Positions 18,628-25,313 of a stretch of 32,018 nt of DNA are shown here, in pieces (position 1 is the first letter of the stretch; the number at the start of each line of letters is the position of its first letter). The notes beneath the pieces are model-generated. The model was not told the origin of the DNA and did no database searches. It saw only the letters and a program-made list of their open reading frames with translations. A program made the translations under genes and the position numbers. The stretch is from Candidatus Margulisiibacteriota bacterium (GTDB lineage Bacteria; Margulisbacteria; Marinamargulisbacteria; UBA817): NCBI GenBank assembly GCA_038109885.1, contig JAYNJH010000004.1, positions 1 through 32,018 on the forward strand. The letters run 5' to 3'.

Positions 18628-21600
18628 CTATTTCCTGGTTTTATCATACAATCTTAATGCATAAAAACCAACGGCAATTCCCAAAATAATTACACCAAAA
18701 ATCTGGAAAATTCCCAACCATATCCCTACATAATTAATTTGATTTATGTAGCGCCCCATCACCTTCAATTGCTTATCTATCATTTGATATTGATACAAGT
18801 TATTTTGAACCATTGTGTCCAAAGCTTTCTTTTTTAACCTTAGTGAGTCATCCAACATGGCTATTTGACCATTAAGTTGAACCAATAAGCGATCAAAGTT
18901 CTCTAGGCTAGGGATCGTTGTTTGAGAAATATCCAGTTGCAATCCATCTGTTTTCTGAACTAAAAACTTAAGCGCTGAATAGGCAACCCCATCCGCATCT
19001 GATGCCGTAATAAATCGCTCGTCTTCACCAATCTTAAAGGCCCCCTTGAATTGCTGAGCCATCGGACCAATATGTGCTACACCTCGATTAAATACATATT
19101 CCCAACGTGATATATTTAATGCCATTAAACTCTCAAAAATCATGCGGTGATCAACTGGCATAAACTGAGTCTTCAAATTTCGATCAGACACCATGCTCCA
19201 ACCACCCCCTTCTGGCGTAGCCGAAACCACCATTCCAGCACCCGTATGAATATGAACCCCATTCGGCGCATTTAAAACCACAGAATCATTTGCAGCAACA
19301 TCGATCCCCTGAATCGATGCATTTAATACTACATTTTGATCACCCAAAACTTGAACATGATCACCAATAACGAGGTTCGCATTCCCTTTAATACGATTAT
19401 AATCACCTAATACTCGCTGATGATTACCATTAATTTCAATATCATTGACACCTAAGGTATAATTTTCATCCCCAGTTACCGATCCCCTTTGACTTGATAT
19501 AAGTGAATTACGATGACCCTTGAGTGTTAATTTTTGAACGGATGCCAATTGATTCTCTTGACCAAACATTCTGAGTTCCGTTGCCCCATCCACCGAATTC
19601 GATTTCCCATAAATCATCGAATCCTTCACATCTTGAATAAAAACGTGATTACCATTTAAATCTAAACTCGTTGCATTATGAATAAAAGCAGTATCAATGC
19701 GCCCCTTAAAATCCGAAACTCGATTCATGTAGATATCATCACCAACCAAATCCAAACGATTACCAAATCTTAATCGATGCTTCCCACCACGAATATGCGC
19801 ATTTTCAACCTGAACATAATCGCCCAACTCAGCATTAATTTCACTATCAGAAATAAAATCAAAGGCACTTTGATTCGCCATAATTCGAGATTTTTTGACA
19901 TCCTGAACCTGCAATTGCGATCCTTGAATCCTTGCAAGTTCAGCTTGCTGAATTGTTAAATCTTGACCATCAATCCAACTATTATCGCTACGATAAATCA
20001 CTGAATCGCTGACTTGAATTGATGATGATGCCACCTGCCCCAAAAAAACATCATTAAGCTGTAATTGATTTTCACCTGAAGCAACCGGCATGCCAATTCC
20101 AAACGCTGACTGTCGAACCACACGCCAAGATGTCCCATTATAAAATCGAAACCCAGTACTATCATATTCCATGGTACCAGCCAAAGGCGCCGAGTTAATT
20201 GAATCGCCTATCGTAATAGCGGAACCTAAATCAAACTGATGCTGCGAATTTCCTAAAGAAGTTGAAATCGCCATTGGCGAATGCAAATAAAGCTGATTGG
20301 CCCCATCACCAAACATAAACTCACCAGAGCCTTTAAGCTCAAAATCAATGGACTTGGACGAATTTTCAATACTTAATTTTACGGGGTTTGCCCCCTCATC
20401 TTTAATTCGGACATCCGCACTAACATCCAAACTTCCAACTTCTAGGGTATAAGAAAAATCACGTTCAATCTGAATCAAATTAGGACTATCATAAATCCCC
20501 AAATTGGATTTATCATCCAAATAAATATTCGTAGATGAATTAAATGACCCCGCCCCCAAGGTAATAATCCGGTGAGATAATAAACTAGACAACCCCGTCC
20601 CACCATTCGCTAGTGACAACTGGCCTGAGAATAATTCACTTGTAATTTCACCTGATTTTATTTTTGACGAAGTAACTTGATTATTTGGGATATGATTTGC
20701 AAGAATTATCTGATCTTTAATATGTGAAGTTCCGATGGACCGATCTGTAAAATTAATCGATGCAACACGGTAATCCTGAAGATTTTCTGAATAAACACTA
20801 TTATTGTCAACCACATCAGAGTTGAAAAACTGATCTGGAATGTAATCATTAATGTTATTATCTTTTAAGATATTAAAGGACAACGAATTTTTCATAATAT
20901 TACTTGAGCCAATGGCATTTGGAGAAATTGTATCCGCATTAAAAATGCCAGTAACAAATCGTGAAATCTCCAACTGGTTTTCCGCAAAATGTGTCAATCG
21001 AACTGAATTAGGGTAAATATTTCTTGATGAAATCACCGCCCCATCCAAATGAATTGATGAAATCATTTTAGCTGCAAAGTCTTTTTCAAGTTGACCAACA
21101 TTCGTTAAATCTTCTCCATTTCCTTGTAAAGTTCCATAAAGTATTTTTAAATTTTCAGGCGTCCATTCCATAACACGCTGGTTGTCTTTAATATGAATGG
21201 AATTTGCTTTTAATAAGTCATTACCTAAGAAGAATTGATTAATCGAAAACAGAGTTGCATTTAACGTTGTTGCCCGTAAGCCCCCATCAAAATGAGCCGA
21301 CCCCTCGACATGAAATTGATGAACAGGAAAATCAAGTCCAATGCCAATACGATAATTTTGACTAACCAATTGAATATTCTCACCATAATCAAACCAACGA
21401 GAAGCCTCAAAAGTAAGTGGTCCATATAAAAGGTCCACCCACTCTTTGGGATGCTTAATTCGTAATGAATCAGATTCCCAACGTATCGAACCTGTAACTT
21501 CAGTTTCTTCATAAGCCAACTTAATTGCACCATTCACATCAACATGAGTTTTGGGTTCTTCAATGCCTATACCAATATATTTCTTATCTCGATCAATCTT

Positions 21601-22008
21601 AAAAATATGCGGAAATCGCGTCTCCCAACCAAACTCAGAAAATAAAGATCGGTAAGAGTATAATTCTGTTAACAACGGAATCTCAGCCGTCTCAGCACCA
21701 ACCGAGATCACCAGCTTTAACTTTTTACGATGAAGCATATACGCATTCAGTGCTGGCACTGAATTCATAACCAATACCAAATTCCCATCTGAAATCGAAT
21801 AATTATCGTAATCTTCAAACCAAATTCGCTCACGAGTAACCGAGTCGTATATTCGAGCCCTGACATTAAAGTTTCCATTATAAAGACCTTGATCATTTGA
21901 TAAAATCATCTCCACAGTCATTTGAGATGGAACTTCAATAATCTTTTCCTCAGCAATACTAAAAATACTAAGAACTAAAATAAAAAATACGGCGACAAGC
22001 TTTTTCAT
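18628..22008 (-). CDS. Fibre paralogue C: secreted tail-fibre-like protein with an S74 intramolecular-chaperone autoprocessing domain, coiled coil and C-terminal TM anchor
   Basis: 1126 aa.
- Signal peptide: MKKLVAVFFILVLSIFSIA|EE.
- Landmarks: YIGIGIEEPKTHVDVNGAIKL (about aa 144), Ile/Val-periodic pseudo-repeats about aa 320-460, LANGGTGLSS (GGT 469-471).
- Beta-helix-type repeats, e.g. INGNHQRVLGDYNRIKGNANLVIGDHVQVLGDQNVVL.
- S74 module: MVSDRNLKTQFMPVD...WEYVFNRGVAHIGPMAQQF...SDADGVAYSALKFLV (Ser codon 19186-19188, Lys at +5).
- About 70 heptad-rich residues, then a TM helix VGIWLGIFQIFGVIILGIAVGFYAL (18655-18729) and a basic tail RLYDKTRK. Confidence 0.8.
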   Translation of the reverse strand: MKKLVAVFFILVLSIFSIAEEKIIEVPSQMTVEMILSNDQGLYNGNFNVRARIYDSVTRERIWFEDYDNYSISDGNLVLVMNSVPALNAYMLHRKKLKLVISVGAETAEIPLLTELYSYRSLFSEFGWETRFPHIFKIDRDKKYIGIGIEEPKTHVDVNGAIKLAYEETEVTGSIRWESDSLRIKHPKEWVDLLYGPLTFEASRWFDYGENIQLVSQNYRIGIGLDFPVHQFHVEGSAHFDGGLRATTLNATLFSINQFFLGNDLLKANSIHIKDNQRVMEWTPENLKILYGTLQGNGEDLTNVGQLEKDFAAKMISSIHLDGAVISSRNIYPNSVRLTHFAENQLEISRFVTGIFNADTISPNAIGSSNIMKNSLSFNILKDNNINDYIPDQFFNSDVVDNNSVYSENLQDYRVASINFTDRSIGTSHIKDQIILANHIPNNQVTSSKIKSGEITSELFSGQLSLANGGTGLSSLLSHRIITLGAGSFNSSTNIYLDDKSNLGIYDSPNLIQIERDFSYTLEVGSLDVSADVRIKDEGANPVKLSIENSSKSIDFELKGSGEFMFGDGANQLYLHSPMAISTSLGNSQHQFDLGSAITIGDSINSAPLAGTMEYDSTGFRFYNGTSWRVVRQSAFGIGMPVASGENQLQLNDVFLGQVASSSIQVSDSVIYRSDNSWIDGQDLTIQQAELARIQGSQLQVQDVKKSRIMANQSAFDFISDSEINAELGDYVQVENAHIRGGKHRLRFGNRLDLVGDDIYMNRVSDFKGRIDTAFIHNATSLDLNGNHVFIQDVKDSMIYGKSNSVDGATELRMFGQENQLASVQKLTLKGHRNSLISSQRGSVTGDENYTLGVNDIEINGNHQRVLGDYNRIKGNANLVIGDHVQVLGDQNVVLNASIQGIDVAANDSVVLNAPNGVHIHTGAGMVVSATPEGGGWSMVSDRNLKTQFMPVDHRMIFESLMALNISRWEYVFNRGVAHIGPMAQQFKGAFKIGEDERFITASDADGVAYSALKFLVQKTDGLQLDISQTTIPSLENFDRLLVQLNGQIAMLDDSLRLKKKALDTMVQNNLYQYQMIDKQLKVMGRYINQINYVGIWLGIFQIFGVIILGIAVGFYALRLYDKTRK

Positions 22009-25000
22009 TTCAGACCCTCCATACGCTGCTGAAGTTTACCCATTTGATGAGTTAATGATTCAATTTCTTGCGATTGCAATGTTTCCTTCTGATGAATTTT
22101 ATTATATTCACCTGTTAATTTTCGATCGGATTCATTTAATTCATTAAGATGTTCAATCATCATTTTCGAGTTCACCACTAACTTATCTGAAGAATTTAAA
22201 ACATCAACTTTCAAAGCCTGATAATTATCCTGATCTTGAACAATCGTTTGATAATAATTTCCTAAACCTTTAATTGAACCTAGAATAACACCGTCCATAT
22301 CAACGGTTTGAATATATTTATTAGATCGGCCAAGGCCAAATACCTTATAAAAATCCTGGGCCATTGGACCAATATGCTGAACATAATGTTGCCCCTTATA
22401 ACGCCATTCCATAATATCTAATTGTAATGCTTTATTTAAAATCTCGTTTGGATTTAAACCTTCAATATTGGTTTTGATAGATTGATCAGAAATTGATGAC
22501 CAACTGCCGGCATTGGCCCCCAAACGCGCCACCAAAACACCTTCTTTGAGAACATTAAATCCACCAAGCGCATGAAAAGAAATGCTCTGATCAATGGTTA
22601 AGTCAGAATCCAAATTAGTTCCAATAGATATAATATGATCACCATCAATGGTGGCATCATGATAACCTATAGCCGTATTATTTTGTCCCAGAATGATGGG
22701 TGCACCATGGCCAATATGACGATGCTTTTCCCCCATATAAACACCCTGCCCATGCACCACGGTATGCTGACGCCCCACCACCGTTGCCCCATCTGAAAAA
22801 CCAACATGATGCCCAAAGCCATAAGTGACAAGATCTCTTGCATGACGAATCGTGTTTTCATACCCTAGAATTACAGCATTCTGAATATGACGAATACGAT
22901 TACGCTGATTTAGTACAACCGTATTATTAGCAAAATAGAGTTGATGCCCATAACCAGAAACATCGCCATTTGTAACAAATGACAAATCATGACCTTCGCC
23001 ATTGATTAACGATGCATCCAATTGATGAAGCGTTAAATGATTTCCCTGCACAGACGAGTTGTTAATAAATTCGGCCGCATTATAATCCCCTTTAAGTTGC
23101 GATGAATAAACTTGACTTGCATGACAAGCTTGACCTTGAATAAAACTATTAAACACTCTATTCAACCGACCAAGATGACAATTTATATATGATTGATCTA
23201 ATTGCATCGCATGAATTTTTTGGCCACGAATCATTGAATCCTGCACCATTTCAACACGATTGCTTAGCCCAGAGAGGTGGGTATTTTTAATTCCAGACAC
23301 CAAATGAGATTCCCCCTCAACACGTGAGTCTTGACCTAATAAAATACGTGAACTGTTGGAATGGTTATCCAAACCGGCAATAAAAAATGAGCCCGATGTC
23401 ATATTATCCTCATTATTAAATTCAAGCTGTGTAATCCCTGACGCCAAAACCAGTTTAAATTTATTTTGAGCCTTTGAATAAAACATTGTTCCTGGCTTTG
23501 GTGAAGAAATGGATGTATCCCCCAATAAAACACCACCTTGAATCGATAACTTTTGAGTGCCTGGCTGTCGTCGAATGCCTAAATGACCATCCGCATGGTT
23601 CATAACCAATATTTGTCGGGATTTTAATTGATCTAAAATCTCAAAGTTTCCCGTAGAGGTTAATCCTAAATACCAGCGACCAATATCATTTTCAATGGCA
23701 AGCCCAGACGCGGCATTGGCTTGAGATTTCATTTTAACAGCTGTTTTCCCTGCTTGATTAAGAATATCTAAATCAAACTCAGGAGATGCATTATTAATGC
23801 CCAACCCATTGGCATTTAACACAACTTTAGGGGCACTAATCATTTGATTGGATGAAACAACAATGAGTCCCCCAACTGTAGAAAACCCTGTTTGATTGGT
23901 ACCTCCCTTATCGATGGGAATAATTGCATTCAAATGAGAAAAAGATAACGCTCCGGGTTGAAAATCAGTTGCCAAAATATCATTATCCTTAATTAGCACA
24001 GAAGTAATTGCATCATCTTTAATAATACCGTGGCGATCGACCATTGGCGTGGCATAATCCTCTGAAATTAAGGTCCCATCTTTAATTTTAGTATAATCAA
24101 TATTTTGAGCCCCAATATTACGGCTCACAACCGCATCATCTTTGAATAAATAAATTGTTAATTCAAAATTTGAAGCCAAATTTGATGAAACAATGGATTC
24201 TCGTTTAATTTCATTATCCGTCACAATTAAAGGCTTGAAGTATGCATTTGTTAATTTAAAATCATCGGTTAAATGTAATCTTTTAATGCTTGCGTCATTT
24301 AAGGCTGAATTCCCAACAGCATTGGCGGCAATTTGAACATGGGTAATTGCTAAATCTGCAATTTCATTATTTTGAATGCCATTAATCTTTAGTGATGGCG
24401 CGCTTACATGAGTCACCCCATGCCCTTTACCAATCAATTTCCCCGAGACTTTTAACCCATCATTTGCATTTATATAATTGGAGGCATTTAATGTCACTGA
24501 CCGAACCGTTAATTCAGCATCTTTAGAGACCCCATAATTATTTAATAAGTTTAGATGACCTGCCGCAGTCAATGGCCCATCCAAACGAACCCCACGTTCA
24601 ACAAATACATCCCCGCCAACCGTCAAAGTGGCCTTATTGGTTTTTGTTGCAATTCGAACAAATGTATCCTTTACAAAAAATGCCGGAATGGTATTACTTT
24701 GATTATTTGTCCATTTACTATCATAGCCATCCGCAGGACTCACGTCTAAATATTTCCAAACGTCATTATGACGCCCCTCCAATCGATTATTTCGCCATCG
24801 GATTGTACCCAACTCATCAATACTTGGATGATCACCCACACGCATCGCACCACCAACTTCAAGTCGAACTGAAGGCGTTGGGTTTTTAATATTAATACCG
24901 ATCCGCTCAGCAATTAAGTTGGTATGAAAAACACCCTCCATATGAATTGCATTCACAATATCCGCCGCATGAGAAAATAAACTAAATGGAATTGACTTCA

Positions 25001-25313
25001 TTGGCAACGCTATTTTTTCAGTACCAATTGTCAAAATCAGCTGAACCCCTTCGTCATAAAACCAATGGGTTTTAATTTCATTAAGATGACCAATTTCGAA
25101 CGATGTTCGCCCTTTAAAAAATTGAGCCGTATGTGTTTCTTGCCAACGAATTTCATTTTTGGGAGACAATAATTGAACCGTTACTGACTTTTTACCATCA
25201 ATTAAAATGCCATCTTCAGCTAAAACAACCTCTAAAAAGCTGGTAATTGTTGCCGCAGAAATCGGAGAAACAAGCATTACAAAAAGCATAAAAATCACCA
25301 ATATTCGTCTCAT
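22005..25313 (-). CDS. Fibre paralogue B: secreted tail-fibre-like protein with an S74 domain and C-terminal coiled coil but no TM anchor
   Basis: 1102 aa.
- Signal peptide: MRRILVIFMLFVMLVSPISA|A.
- Landmarks: RIGINIKNPTPSVRLEVGGAMRV (about aa 137), IDKGGTNQTGF (GGT 470-472).
- His-rich beta-helix-type repeats about aa 650-895.
- S74 module: SSISDQSIKTNIEGL...WRYKGQHYVQHIGPMAQDF...VDMDGVILGSIKGL (Ser codon 22488-22490).
- It ends in a heptad-rich ...HQMGKLQQRMEGLK with no hydrophobic segment.
- ATGA overlaps occur at both ends (25310-25313 and 22005-22008). Confidence 0.8.
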   Translation of the reverse strand: MRRILVIFMLFVMLVSPISAATITSFLEVVLAEDGILIDGKKSVTVQLLSPKNEIRWQETHTAQFFKGRTSFEIGHLNEIKTHWFYDEGVQLILTIGTEKIALPMKSIPFSLFSHAADIVNAIHMEGVFHTNLIAERIGINIKNPTPSVRLEVGGAMRVGDHPSIDELGTIRWRNNRLEGRHNDVWKYLDVSPADGYDSKWTNNQSNTIPAFFVKDTFVRIATKTNKATLTVGGDVFVERGVRLDGPLTAAGHLNLLNNYGVSKDAELTVRSVTLNASNYINANDGLKVSGKLIGKGHGVTHVSAPSLKINGIQNNEIADLAITHVQIAANAVGNSALNDASIKRLHLTDDFKLTNAYFKPLIVTDNEIKRESIVSSNLASNFELTIYLFKDDAVVSRNIGAQNIDYTKIKDGTLISEDYATPMVDRHGIIKDDAITSVLIKDNDILATDFQPGALSFSHLNAIIPIDKGGTNQTGFSTVGGLIVVSSNQMISAPKVVLNANGLGINNASPEFDLDILNQAGKTAVKMKSQANAASGLAIENDIGRWYLGLTSTGNFEILDQLKSRQILVMNHADGHLGIRRQPGTQKLSIQGGVLLGDTSISSPKPGTMFYSKAQNKFKLVLASGITQLEFNNEDNMTSGSFFIAGLDNHSNSSRILLGQDSRVEGESHLVSGIKNTHLSGLSNRVEMVQDSMIRGQKIHAMQLDQSYINCHLGRLNRVFNSFIQGQACHASQVYSSQLKGDYNAAEFINNSSVQGNHLTLHQLDASLINGEGHDLSFVTNGDVSGYGHQLYFANNTVVLNQRNRIRHIQNAVILGYENTIRHARDLVTYGFGHHVGFSDGATVVGRQHTVVHGQGVYMGEKHRHIGHGAPIILGQNNTAIGYHDATIDGDHIISIGTNLDSDLTIDQSISFHALGGFNVLKEGVLVARLGANAGSWSSISDQSIKTNIEGLNPNEILNKALQLDIMEWRYKGQHYVQHIGPMAQDFYKVFGLGRSNKYIQTVDMDGVILGSIKGLGNYYQTIVQDQDNYQALKVDVLNSSDKLVVNSKMMIEHLNELNESDRKLTGEYNKIHQKETLQSQEIESLTHQMGKLQQRMEGLK

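What the first reader, a model, noticed from the sequence alone, without database searches (positions are those of the whole stretch)
18631..19188. S74 autoproteolytic chaperone module is followed by a coiled coil and a C-terminal TM anchor: membrane-tethered, self-shedding fibre
In phage endosialidases and tailspikes the S74 intramolecular chaperone is the extreme C-terminus. It cuts itself off through a Ser-Lys dyad with the Lys at +5. All three proteins keep this dyad: SDRNLK, SDQSIK and SDESMK.

In paralogue C the domain begins at Ser codon 19186-19188. It is followed by about 70 heptad-rich residues, a hydrophobic helix (18655-18729) and a basic tail RLYDKTRK. Paralogue A is the same, with Ser at 25886-25888, TM at 25346-25393 and tail KIKQRIQERKS.

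Combined with the N-terminal Sec signal peptide, this predicts a type I topology. The whole fibre lies outside the cytoplasmic membrane and is held there only through the part that self-cleavage removes.

My inference is that the membrane-anchored coiled coil gathers three unfolded, Sec-exported C-termini to nucleate trimerisation. S74 cleavage would then release the mature fibre from its anchor. I am not aware that this biogenesis logic has been described.
Basis: partly seen in the sequence, partly recalled or inferred. Interest (0 to 1): 0.75.

Follow-up and report, generated by a model that had tools for sequence, protein, structure and literature searches.

The report
Membrane-anchored self-cleaving bacterial fibre precursors
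Three neighbouring genes of an uncultured marine bacterium (Marinamargulisbacteria) encode long exported fibre proteins ending in a self-cutting folding module, and in two of the three this module is followed by a membrane anchor; this layout is known from the animal protein MYRF, but I found no description of it in bacteria.

Summary
Genes A, B and C all carry a Pfam Peptidase_S74 domain above threshold, with SDxxxK at the stated codons. In A and C a heptad-periodic helix, a hydrophobic helix and a basic tail follow it. B has the helix but no anchor, which the title glosses over.

An AlphaFold model of the C module (pLDDT 87.6) matches the MyRF ICA domain best, then the phage chaperones.

Context is housekeeping, not prophage. 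The A-B-C triplet is conserved in five Marinamargulis loci, always in this order and with ATGA overlaps in most of them.

- A type I precursor whose self-cleavage separates the fibre from an anchor stub is the best reading.
- The logic is already described for eukaryotic MYRF.
- Signal-peptide-bearing S74 fibres are already known in Bdellovibrio (MAT family). There the N-terminal domain is thought to keep the fibre on the cell, so "self-shedding" is doubtful.
- The host is probably diderm, so release would be into the periplasm.

New here: in a GTDB sample the anchor follows S74 in 10 of 12 ORFs from monoderm Chloroflexota and in 0 of 75 others. That fits a role in holding unfolded chains.

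Verdict: new variant of a known kind, moderate interest.

The parts
25310..28690 (-). Gene A: 1126-aa fibre precursor. Layout: signal-like N-terminus, N-domain, fibre, S74, coiled coil, TM.
   Evidence: ORF. Pfam S74. TM. Orthologues in L001, L004 and L085 (partial, cut by the contig end).
22005..25313 (-). Gene B: 1102-aa fibre precursor with S74 and a coiled-coil tail but no TM.
   Evidence: B-type orthologues (P0030, P0032, P0047, P0065, L1_B, L4_B) also lack a TM.
18628..22008 (-). Gene C: 1126-aa fibre precursor. It holds the finding's region, 18631-19188.
   Evidence: It is 100% identical to P0001, an NCBI MAG of Candidatus Margulisiibacteriota named 'tail fiber domain-containing protein'.
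21952..22008 (-). C: predicted Sec signal peptide, aa 1-19 (MKKLVAVFFILVLSIFSIA|EEK).
   Evidence: Hydropathy. n/h/c regions and a S-I-A site read directly from the sequence. No Cys. No signal-peptide predictor was available.
21613..21951 (-). C: conserved N-terminal beta-rich domain, aa 20-132. It is shared with S74 fibres of many phyla.
   Evidence: HMM hits (40 of 87 S74 ORFs). Alignment A4. 442 database hits. No Pfam model exists.
19186..19188 (-). C: Ser941, the predicted nucleophile and cleavage site.
   Evidence: Ser, Asp and Lys are nearly invariant in the 34-sequence alignment A3. It aligns with the MyRF S587 position, which is Ala in the crystal construct.
19171..19173 (-). C: Lys946, the predicted general base at +5.
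   Evidence: The dyad is defined in PMC3742443 and PMC8326128.
18922..19188 (-). C: S74/ICA core, aa 941-1029 (helix, beta-hairpin, helix, long helix).
   Evidence: AF2 model (pLDDT mostly 89-96 here). Foldseek best match is 7dc3, MyRF ICA, with probability 1.0 and TM-score 0.51 normalised to the target; next come 3gud and 3gw6.
18739..18906 (-). C: extension helix, aa 1035-1090 (~8 heptads), between the S74 core and the membrane.
   Evidence: AF2 helix 105-160 of the module. Heptad periodicity p=0.0035.
18655..18729 (-). C: predicted transmembrane helix, aa 1094-1118.
   Evidence: KD maximum 2.34. AF2 helix 163-195 with pLDDT 88-97. Conserved in P0002-P0007 with an LGFY.L[KR]LY motif.
18631..18654 (-). 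C: basic cytoplasmic tail, RLYDKTRK.
25886..25888 (-). A: Ser935 of SDESMK, the predicted cleavage site.
25346..25393 (-). A: predicted TM helix, aa 1100-1115 (LIVFFFVGVLCGLIGF).
   Evidence: A-type orthologues keep a TM (P0028, P0048, P0116, L1_A, L4_A).
25313..25345 (-). A: basic tail, KIKQRIQERKS.
22488..22490 (-). B: Ser942 of SDQSIK.
22008..22256 (-). B: heptad-periodic C-terminal tail, aa 1020-1102. It ends without a TM.
   Evidence: p=0.001..
25310..25313 (-). ATGA stop/start overlap of A and B, with AGGAG ~10 nt upstream (translational coupling).
   Evidence: The same overlap occurs in L001-L004 and L085.
22005..22008 (-). ATGA stop/start overlap of B and C, with GGAGGG ~10 nt upstream.
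   Evidence: The same overlap occurs in L001-L004.

Best explanation
A, B and C are chromosomal, Sec-exported trimeric fibre proteins of the MAT-like kind. Their layout is signal peptide, conserved N-terminal domain, ~800-aa beta-rich stalk, then a C-terminal S74/ICA intramolecular-chaperone autoprotease.

In A and C the ICA module is prolonged by a ~56-residue coiled-coil helix that runs into a single TM helix and a short basic tail. The proposed pathway has six steps.
1. The chain is threaded through Sec. The TM acts as a stop-transfer signal.
2. After signal-peptide removal the precursor is a type I inner-membrane protein tethered by its C-terminus.
3. Three tethered C-termini meet by two-dimensional diffusion and zip up through the coiled coil and ICA helices.
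4. The ICA trimer templates folding of the upstream triple beta-helix.
5. The assembled Ser-Lys dyad cuts in front of Ser941 (C) or Ser935 (A).
6. A ~185-190-aa chaperone stub stays in the membrane. The mature fibre is freed from it, into the periplasm, to be held or moved on by its N-terminal domain.

This is the MYRF logic on the other face of the membrane.

Shown here: the domains, motifs, predicted fold, hydrophobic anchor, their conservation and their phyletic pattern.

Inferred: topology, cleavage, the role of the anchor and the fate of the fibre.
For: - S74 scores above the Pfam threshold in all three proteins.
- Ser, Asp and Lys(+5) are nearly invariant in alignment A3.
- The AF2 model has pLDDT 87.6 and shows S74 core, then helix 105-160, then TM helix 163-195.
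- The best structural matches are the MyRF ICA 7dc3, then GA-1 3gud and endoNF 3gw6. The profile also hits 7dc3 at the cleavage motif with E=0.009.
- Heptad periodicity is significant.
- The TM plus basic tail is conserved in all A-type and C-type orthologues at 40-60% identity.
- No prophage or eCIS genes lie around the triplet; the neighbours are nadB, citrate synthase, nadA, tatC, carAB and proS.
- Chloroflexota proteins have the same overall layout (signal peptide, N-domain, S74, coiled coil, linker, TM, basic tail), though their coiled coil is shorter and a flexible linker precedes the TM.
- In the GTDB sample the TM follows S74 in 10 of 12 Chloroflexota ORFs and 0 of 75 others. Chloroflexi are a monoderm clade. 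This fits an anchor that stops unfolded chains from diffusing away.
- Precedents: the MYRF mechanism (PMC3742443, PMC8326128) and S74 cleavage of the exported Bdellovibrio fibre Bd3182, blocked by S782A (PMC10769870).
Against: - There is no experimental data of any kind for these proteins.
- Signal peptide and TM rest on hydropathy and motif reading only.
- Local charge does not discriminate the two sides of the TM: 3-4 K/R on either side.
- B and all B-type orthologues fold, presumably, without an anchor.
- Marinamargulisbacteria appear to be diderm. The 'monoderm' rationale therefore does not explain this lineage, and a released ~50-nm fibre would still have to cross or be placed in the outer membrane by an unknown route.
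- The S74 fibres of Bdellovibrio, also a diderm, need no anchor.
Confidence: 0.6

Rival explanations
1. Heterotrimer. A, B and C co-assemble 1:1:1 into one fibre. The trimer is tethered by the anchors of A and C, and B rides along. The anchor and coiled-coil extensions then serve chain selection and register as much as concentration.
For: - The triplet occurs in the same order in five loci from several lineages.
- ATGA overlaps with SD-like sequences sit at both junctions.
- The paralogues are only ~20% identical, yet landmarks sit at the same residue numbers: the GGT motif at 469-475, the Ser at 935-948, and a GGT-to-Ser distance of 462-477.
- B keeps the long coiled-coil extension (tail 160 aa against ~115 aa typical) although it has no TM. 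It ends about where the TM of A and C begins.
Against: - All characterised S74/ICA proteins (endoNF, T5 pb1, MYRF, Bd3182) are homotrimers (PMC8326128, PMC10769870).
- Tandem paralogous fibre genes are common without co-assembly.
- Equal lengths could reflect a shared length constraint.
Confidence: 0.2
2. Regulated storage and release, in the strict MYRF sense. The anchor parks an assembly-competent precursor on the membrane. Cleavage is held back by the juxtamembrane helix or a partner until a signal arrives. The point of the anchor would then be timing, not folding.
For: - In MYRF, cleavage is inhibited by TMEM98 and by the juxtamembrane region or PAN-1 (abstracts of PMC7153906 and PMC12803276).
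- For Bd3182, cleavage appears late in the predatory cycle (supplement of PMC10769870).
- The extension helix is long and conserved.
Against: - No partner gene is conserved next to the triplet.
- Phage and Bd3182 S74 domains cleave spontaneously on trimerisation in E. coli.
- The Chloroflexota versions have a short coiled coil and a flexible linker rather than a conserved juxtamembrane element.
Confidence: 0.12
3. The C-terminal hydrophobic helix plus basic tail is a sorting signal for a dedicated processing enzyme (sortase-, exosortase- or rhombosortase-like). Alternatively it is only a disposal handle that keeps the spent chaperone at the membrane for proteolysis. Either way it plays no part in trimerisation.
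For: - A TM with a basic tail at the extreme C-terminus of an exported protein is the format of LPXTG, PEP-CTERM and MYXO-CTERM signals.
- Two Chloroflexota tails give sub-threshold MYXO-CTERM hits, 17.1 and 14 bits against a cut-off of 20.
Against: - The Margulis tails hit no sorting-domain model.
- No conserved signature motif precedes the TM.
- No sortase- or exosortase-like gene lies in the window.
- S74 already provides the cut.
Confidence: 0.05
4. No cleavage. The proteins are permanent inner-membrane-anchored periplasmic fibres, and the S74 module serves only as a trimerisation domain.
For: A diderm host offers no obvious route for a released fibre to reach the surface.
Against: - Ser, Asp and Lys(+5) are conserved across all paralogues and orthologues.
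- Every tested S74/ICA domain with the dyad cleaves (PMC3742443, PMC8326128, PMC10769870).
Confidence: 0.03

Closest known systems
MYRF (myelin regulatory factor) and its ICA domain
   Same: - Domain order: beta-helical stalk, ICA/S74, C-terminal trimeric coiled coil, juxtamembrane stretch, single TM.
- Trimerisation-dependent Ser-Lys(+5) self-cleavage frees the N-terminal trimer from the membrane-bound stub (PMC3742443, PMC8326128).
- It is the best structural match of the module (7dc3) and a marginal profile match at the cleavage motif.
   Different: - MYRF is eukaryotic, has no signal peptide and is a type II ER protein. Its ICA and cargo lie in the cytosol and a large luminal domain follows the TM.
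- Its cargo is an Ndt80-type DNA-binding domain, not a fibre.
- Here the module lies outside the cytoplasm, the protein ends 8-11 residues after the TM, and the core motif is HxGPMAQDF.
- No specific ancestry between the two was shown.
Bdellovibrio MAT (mosaic adhesive trimer) fibres, S74 subgroup (e.g. Bd3182)
   Same: - Chromosomal bacterial genes of ~1000 aa.
- Signal peptide followed by a conserved beta-rich N-terminal domain.
- Long trimeric fibre with a C-terminal S74 carrying SDxxxK.
- Several paralogues per genome.
- Self-cleavage was demonstrated for Bd3182 (PMC10769870).
   Different: - The paper mentions no TM or membrane anchor after S74 (0 occurrences in the text and in the supplements that were searchable).
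- Bd3182 632-922 behaves as a soluble protein.
- Homology of the N-domain to the Bdellovibrio one could not be tested here because no Bdellovibrio sequence was in reach.
Phage C-terminal intramolecular chaperone domains (endosialidase K1F endoNF, GA-1 neck appendage, T5 pb1)
   Same: The fold and the Ser-Lys dyad are shared. The function is to template a triple beta-helix and then cut itself off.
   Different: The phage domains are cytoplasmic, with no signal peptide, and form the extreme C-terminus with no TM. The proteins here sit in a housekeeping context with no phage genes.
Chloroflexota (Anaerolineae/Thermoflexales) S74 proteins with a C-terminal TM (e.g. P0148/MDL1895389.1 cluster, L022, L049, L079)
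   Same: The layout is signal peptide, N-domain, fibre, S74, coiled coil, TM, basic tail.
   Different: - They are shorter, at 500-850 aa.
- The coiled coil is short and is followed by a Pro/Gly/Ser linker before the TM.
- The host is monoderm.
- They are uncharacterised and annotated only as 'tail fiber domain-containing' or hypothetical.
Transmembrane collagens (types XIII, XVII, XXIII, XXV). This comparison comes from my own knowledge and was not checked here.
   Same: A membrane anchor with an adjacent coiled coil nucleates trimerisation of a long triple-stranded rod. The rod is then shed by proteolysis.
   Different: They are type II proteins with an N-terminal anchor. They are shed by furin or ADAM proteases, not by self-cleavage. 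There is no homology.

Membership tests
Peptidase S74 / ICA intramolecular chaperone autoprotease (PF13884) | Sequence match to the family model above the curated threshold | tested here: met
   27.5, 41.1 and 25.5 bits against a gathering cut-off of 22.
Peptidase S74 / ICA intramolecular chaperone autoprotease (PF13884) | Catalytic Ser with Lys at +5 (SDxxxK) | tested here: met
   SDRNLK, SDQSIK and SDESMK. The residues are nearly invariant in A3 and present in 143 of 150 nearest relatives.
Peptidase S74 / ICA intramolecular chaperone autoprotease (PF13884) | ICA fold, including the C-terminal helix that forms the trimeric coiled coil | tested here: met
   AF2 pLDDT 87.6. Foldseek top hits are 7dc3, 3gud and 3gw6. 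This is a monomer model only, so the trimer was not modelled.
Peptidase S74 / ICA intramolecular chaperone autoprotease (PF13884) | Trimerisation-dependent self-cleavage | not testable with these tools
   Needs expression of wild type and S-to-A or K-to-A mutants.
MYRF-type membrane-tethered ICA proteins | ICA domain followed in the same chain by a single TM helix, so that cleavage separates the cargo from the anchor | tested here: met
   Met for A and C by hydropathy and by the AF2 helix. Not met for B.
MYRF-type membrane-tethered ICA proteins | Type II topology with the ICA and cargo in the cytosol, plus an Ndt80-like DNA-binding domain | tested here: not met
   An N-terminal signal-like sequence predicts an exported ICA. 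There is no Ndt80 or other DNA-binding hit. The proteins work like MYRF but are not members of its family.
MAT (mosaic adhesive trimer) fibre family of Bdellovibrio | Signal peptide followed by a conserved beta-rich N-terminal domain of ~130 aa | tested here: inconclusive
   A conserved ~105-130-aa N-domain follows the signal-like sequence and is shared with S74 proteins of many phyla. Homology to the Bdellovibrio domain itself could not be tested.
MAT (mosaic adhesive trimer) fibre family of Bdellovibrio | ~1000-aa trimeric fibre ending in S74 or another tip domain | tested here: met
   Lengths are 1102-1126 aa with S74 near the C-terminus. There are beta-roll-like (LbR_Ice_bind, below threshold) and phage tail-fibre repeat hits. 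The trimeric state was not tested.
MAT (mosaic adhesive trimer) fibre family of Bdellovibrio | Location on the cell surface | not testable with these tools
   Needs microscopy or fractionation.
C-terminal sorting signals (LPXTG, PEP-CTERM, MYXO-CTERM, GlyGly-CTERM and similar) | Signature motif just before the TM helix and basic tail; match to the NCBIfam sorting-domain models | tested here: not met
   The Margulis tails hit no sorting model even at E<=10. Two Chloroflexota tails give sub-threshold MYXO-CTERM hits only.
Phage or prophage tail fibre / eCIS tail fibre | Encoded among phage or contractile-injection structural genes; no export signal | tested here: not met
   The neighbours are housekeeping genes in the window and in the four other loci (L001-L004, L085). 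Signal-like N-termini are present. PHROG hits are weak and limited to repeats and S74.

The most novel reading that the evidence does not exclude
The three translationally coupled paralogues form a single 1:1:1 heterotrimeric fibre. It is nucleated on the inner membrane by a two-anchor, one-free coiled coil and then cut loose by three S74 sites. More broadly, the S74-coiled-coil-TM cassette would be a recurrent bacterial device for assembling trimeric fibres outside the cytoplasm. It would be the rule in monoderm Chloroflexota and present in Marinamargulisbacteria, and would be a prokaryotic counterpart of the MYRF release mechanism.
Probability: 0.2. Interest if true: 0.75.

Novelty: new variant of a known kind. 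Interest (0 to 1): 0.5.

Why it matters
S74/ICA domains are the textbook case of a chaperone that folds a trimeric beta-helix and then removes itself. How such fibres assemble after Sec export is not known, even for the Bdellovibrio MAT adhesins. After export the chains emerge unfolded, one at a time, and can diffuse away.

A membrane-anchored version gives a concrete, testable answer for two lineages. It also shows that the tether-trimerise-cut-release principle, so far tied to one eukaryotic transcription factor, exists in bacteria on the outer face of the membrane.

The phyletic pattern turns the idea into a comparative hypothesis about cell-envelope type. The anchor is common in monoderm Chloroflexota and absent in the sampled diderm phyla. 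Marinamargulisbacteria are an informative exception.

The conserved A-B-C triplet would be the first heterotrimeric S74 fibre, if that reading is right.

Practically, the anchor stub could be used to display or release engineered trimers from bacterial membranes.

Tried and rejected
1. **Exact look-up of protein C in the contig index.** It was not on record. The organism was instead identified through P0001 and the orthologue contigs.
2. **Single-sequence AF2 of the module.** The S74 core was not modelled, with pLDDT <50 for residues 1-103. I repeated it with a 34-sequence alignment.
3. **Profile searches of PDB sequences with the 3-sequence alignments.** These gave only coiled-coil noise or nothing. 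The 34-sequence profile gave a marginal MyRF hit among coiled-coil noise. Fold comparison was needed.
4. **Word-indexed homology search with the C-terminal module and with the N-domain.** It returned mostly short, unnamed fragments. It was of no use for taxonomy, and no Bdellovibrio MAT sequence was obtained, so direct MAT homology stays untested.
5. **NCBIfam on the whole proteins and on the tails.** No family and no sorting signal was found. I rejected the sorting-signal reading for the Margulis proteins.
6. **Prophage or eCIS origin.** Rejected from the gene context and the export signals.
7. **Tat export of B, suggested by its MRR start.** Rejected because the B orthologues start MRIL or MRLL, without the twin arginine.
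8. **MYRF's ICA-TM descending specifically from this bacterial group.** Not supported. The relation is at fold level, with about 16% identity over the aligned residues and a marginal profile hit. It was not pursued.
9. **Promoter and terminator scan of the triplet.** The promoter count was no better than shuffles (45 found, 46.3 expected). Terminator-like sites were about twice the shuffle mean (14 found, 7.6 expected), and I did not check them one by one against the gene junctions.
10. **Literature searches** for PF13884, Peptidase_S74, and 'intramolecular chaperone' with transmembrane or signal peptide. They found MYRF and MAT but no bacterial S74+TM description. Subscription journals are not covered.


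Full report
**What is in the sequence**

The finding lies at the 3' end of the last of three tandem genes on the minus strand.
- A: 25310-28690, 1126 aa.
- B: 22005-25313, 1102 aa.
- C: 18628-22008, 1126 aa.

Protein C is 100% identical to an NCBI MAG protein of Candidatus Margulisiibacteriota named 'tail fiber domain-containing protein'. Its closest relatives (40-47% identity) come from marine metagenomes and from a Marinamargulisbacteria single-cell genome.

The rest of the window is housekeeping. It holds proS, carB, purF, carA, tatC, nadA, an HslU/ClpX-like ATPase, a YggS-like gene, sepF, mazG, citrate synthase, nadB, a HAD hydrolase and ispG. There is no phage or contractile-injection gene.

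**Check of the observation**

- Pfam Peptidase_S74 (PF13884) scores above its gathering threshold in all three proteins.
- The SDxxxK motifs and their codons are exactly as stated.
- The hydrophobic segments and basic tails of C (aa 1094-1118, then RLYDKTRK) and A (aa 1100-1115, then KIKQRIQERKS) are at the stated coordinates.
- The stretch between the S74 core and the TM has significant 3.5-residue hydrophobic periodicity in all three.
- Each protein begins with a basic, hydrophobic, small-x-Ala sequence without Cys. This looks like a Sec/SPase I signal, but I could only judge it by eye and by hydropathy.

**Structure**

With a 34-sequence alignment, AlphaFold2 models the 196-residue module of C at mean pLDDT 87.6.
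- The core is helix, beta-hairpin, helix, long helix (aa 941-1029).
- A short Pro-containing break follows.
- Then comes one 56-residue helix (aa 1035-1090).
- After a two-residue kink, a 33-residue helix covers the TM and tail.

Foldseek against the PDB puts the MyRF ICA domain first (7dc3, probability 1.0, TM-score 0.51 normalised to the target). The GA-1 (3gud) and endosialidase (3gw6) intramolecular chaperones follow. A profile of the alignment also reaches 7dc3 at the cleavage motif, E=0.009.

In MyRF that helix is the main driver of trimerisation (PMC8326128). The real addition is about 56 residues of helix plus the anchor. This agrees with tail lengths: 185-191 aa from the Ser here, against 100-130 aa in most relatives.

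**Conservation**

All C-type orthologues (P0002-P0007 and others) keep the TM and a basic tail, with a recognisable LGFY.L[KR]LY end. All A-type orthologues keep a TM. All B-type orthologues lack it.

The triplet lies in the order A-B-C between nadB and citrate synthase in five loci of several lineages: the window, L001-L003, L004 and L085. ATGA stop/start overlaps sit at the gene junctions, at both junctions in the window and L001-L004 and at the A-B junction in L085. SD-like sequences sit about 10 nt upstream in the window.

Orthologues are 43-60% identical, but the paralogues only ~20%. Internal landmarks nevertheless sit at nearly the same residue numbers in A, B and C.

**How widespread is it?**

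An exhaustive HMM search with the S74 core finds 16,280 clusters. About 30 of the best 150 have a hydrophobic segment at the C-terminus. These are the Marinamargulis A and C types plus a second group. The named members of that group come from Anaerolineae, phylum Chloroflexota.

A scan of one genome per GTDB species for HxGPMAQDF found at least 594 loci in many phyla. Among the best 80 loci there are 87 complete ORFs.
- A TM follows S74 in 10 of the 12 Chloroflexota ORFs.
- It follows S74 in none of the 75 others. These come mainly from Verrucomicrobiota, Eremiobacterota, Acidobacteriota, Planctomycetota, Zixibacteria and Proteobacteria.

The Chloroflexota proteins also carry a signal-like start and the same N-terminal domain. 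That domain (consensus ..NYQG.L.D..G.P...) has no Pfam model. It occurs in 40 of the 87 ORFs.

Chloroflexi are treated as a monoderm clade (10.1101/2021.05.31.446380). Margulisbacteria have OmpM homologues. A Marinamargulis symbiont shows presumed outer-membrane vesicles (PMC6784892). A related locus also encodes a secretin, PF00263 at 114.8 bits. The host of the window is therefore most probably diderm.

**What is already known**

1. MYRF is made as a type II ER membrane protein. Its ICA domain lies between the cargo and the TM. It trimerises through the ICA coiled coil and cuts at S587/K592 only when trimeric. The N-terminal trimer then leaves the membrane (PMC3742443, PMC8326128).
2. Bdellovibrio MAT fibres are ~1000-aa chromosomal proteins. 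They have a signal peptide, a conserved ~130-aa N-terminal domain and a trimeric fibre, and 13 of 21 have a terminal S74 with SDxxxK. Cleavage at S782 was shown for Bd3182. The N-terminal domain is proposed to bind a surface element of the cell (PMC10769870).

The MAT paper and the supplements I could search do not mention a TM. Searches for PF13884, Peptidase_S74 and related terms found no bacterial S74+TM description.

**Most likely mechanism**

A and C are type I inner-membrane precursors. The TM stops transfer and holds the C-terminus. Three chains meet in the plane of the membrane and zip through the coiled coil and ICA helices. The beta-helical stalk folds on this template. The dyad then cuts in front of the Ser.

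The ~185-190-aa stub stays in the membrane. The mature fibre is free of the membrane but probably still cell-associated through its N-terminal domain.

I give this chain of events about 0.6. The cleavage and stub part is more certain than the claim that the anchor nucleates trimerisation. The Chloroflexota pattern supports the nucleation idea. The anchor-free paralogue B, the anchor-free S74 fibres of diderm Bdellovibrio and the diderm host speak against it being a general need.

**Rivals**

- A 1:1:1 A/B/C heterotrimer (about 0.2). It would explain the coupled triplet, the equal landmark positions and why B keeps the long extension without a TM.
- MYRF-like regulated release (about 0.12).
- A sorting or disposal signal (about 0.05). 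No model or motif supports it.
- A permanently anchored, uncleaved fibre (about 0.03). The conserved dyad argues against it.

**Verdict**

This is neither a new kind of system nor quite a known one. It is a bacterial, extracytoplasmic variant of the MYRF-type tethered ICA, built on a MAT-like fibre.

The extra results are the lineage pattern of the anchor and the conserved, coupled A-B-C triplet. Interest is moderate (0.5). The most novel reading still open is the heterotrimer together with a general anchor-assisted assembly device. It has a probability of about 0.2 and would deserve about 0.75.

Noticed in passing
window 18628-28690 (also L001 3316-13393, L004 3292-13402, L085 2-8333): The three fibre genes are ancient paralogues (~20% identity). 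They are kept as an A-B-C triplet with ATGA overlaps. Internal landmarks sit at the same residue numbers in all three: the GGT motif at 469-475 and the cleavage Ser at 935-948. This suggests co-assembly or a strict length constraint.
   Followed up: partly
L022, L025, L035, L043, L046, L049, L056, L075, L079 (Chloroflexota loci): The S74 + coiled coil + linker + TM + basic tail layout is the rule in Anaerolineae and Thermoflexales. It occurs in 10 of 12 Chloroflexota ORFs and in none of 75 ORFs from other phyla in the same sample. Two of the tails give sub-threshold MYXO-CTERM hits.
   Followed up: partly
proteins P0010-P0022 and P0027 from the exhaustive S74 search: The best-scoring relatives carry two or three S74 modules in one chain. 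Examples are P0010 (1221 aa, Ser at 495 and 1104), P0018 (4164 aa) and P0027 (4928 aa). They may be poly-fibres that cut themselves into several pieces.
   Followed up: no
L001 15281-21597 (same in L002, L003): About 2-8 kb downstream of gene C lies a run of seven genes with no significant Pfam hit. It ends in a short (301-aa) secretin, PF00263 at E=4e-33. It could be a small pilus- or secretion-type outer-membrane channel. The cluster is not next to the triplet in the window or in L004.
   Followed up: partly
window 21613-21951, 24920-25253, 28280-28615 (-): A ~105-130-aa domain directly after the signal peptide has no Pfam model. It is shared by S74 proteins of many phyla (442 database hits). 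It is probably the counterpart of the 'invariable N-terminal domain' of Bdellovibrio MAT fibres.
   Followed up: partly
window 18628-18647: The end of gene C overlaps the longest citrate-synthase ORF by 20 nt, and the same is true in L004. In L001 and L085 the citrate-synthase gene is called 10-16 nt downstream instead. The true start may therefore be the second Met (MEFDHL...).
   Followed up: no
window 10258-12438 (-): A 726-aa ORF with a TTG start has only a just-sub-threshold PP2C_2 hit (23.9 bits against 24). It is otherwise unannotated.
   Followed up: no
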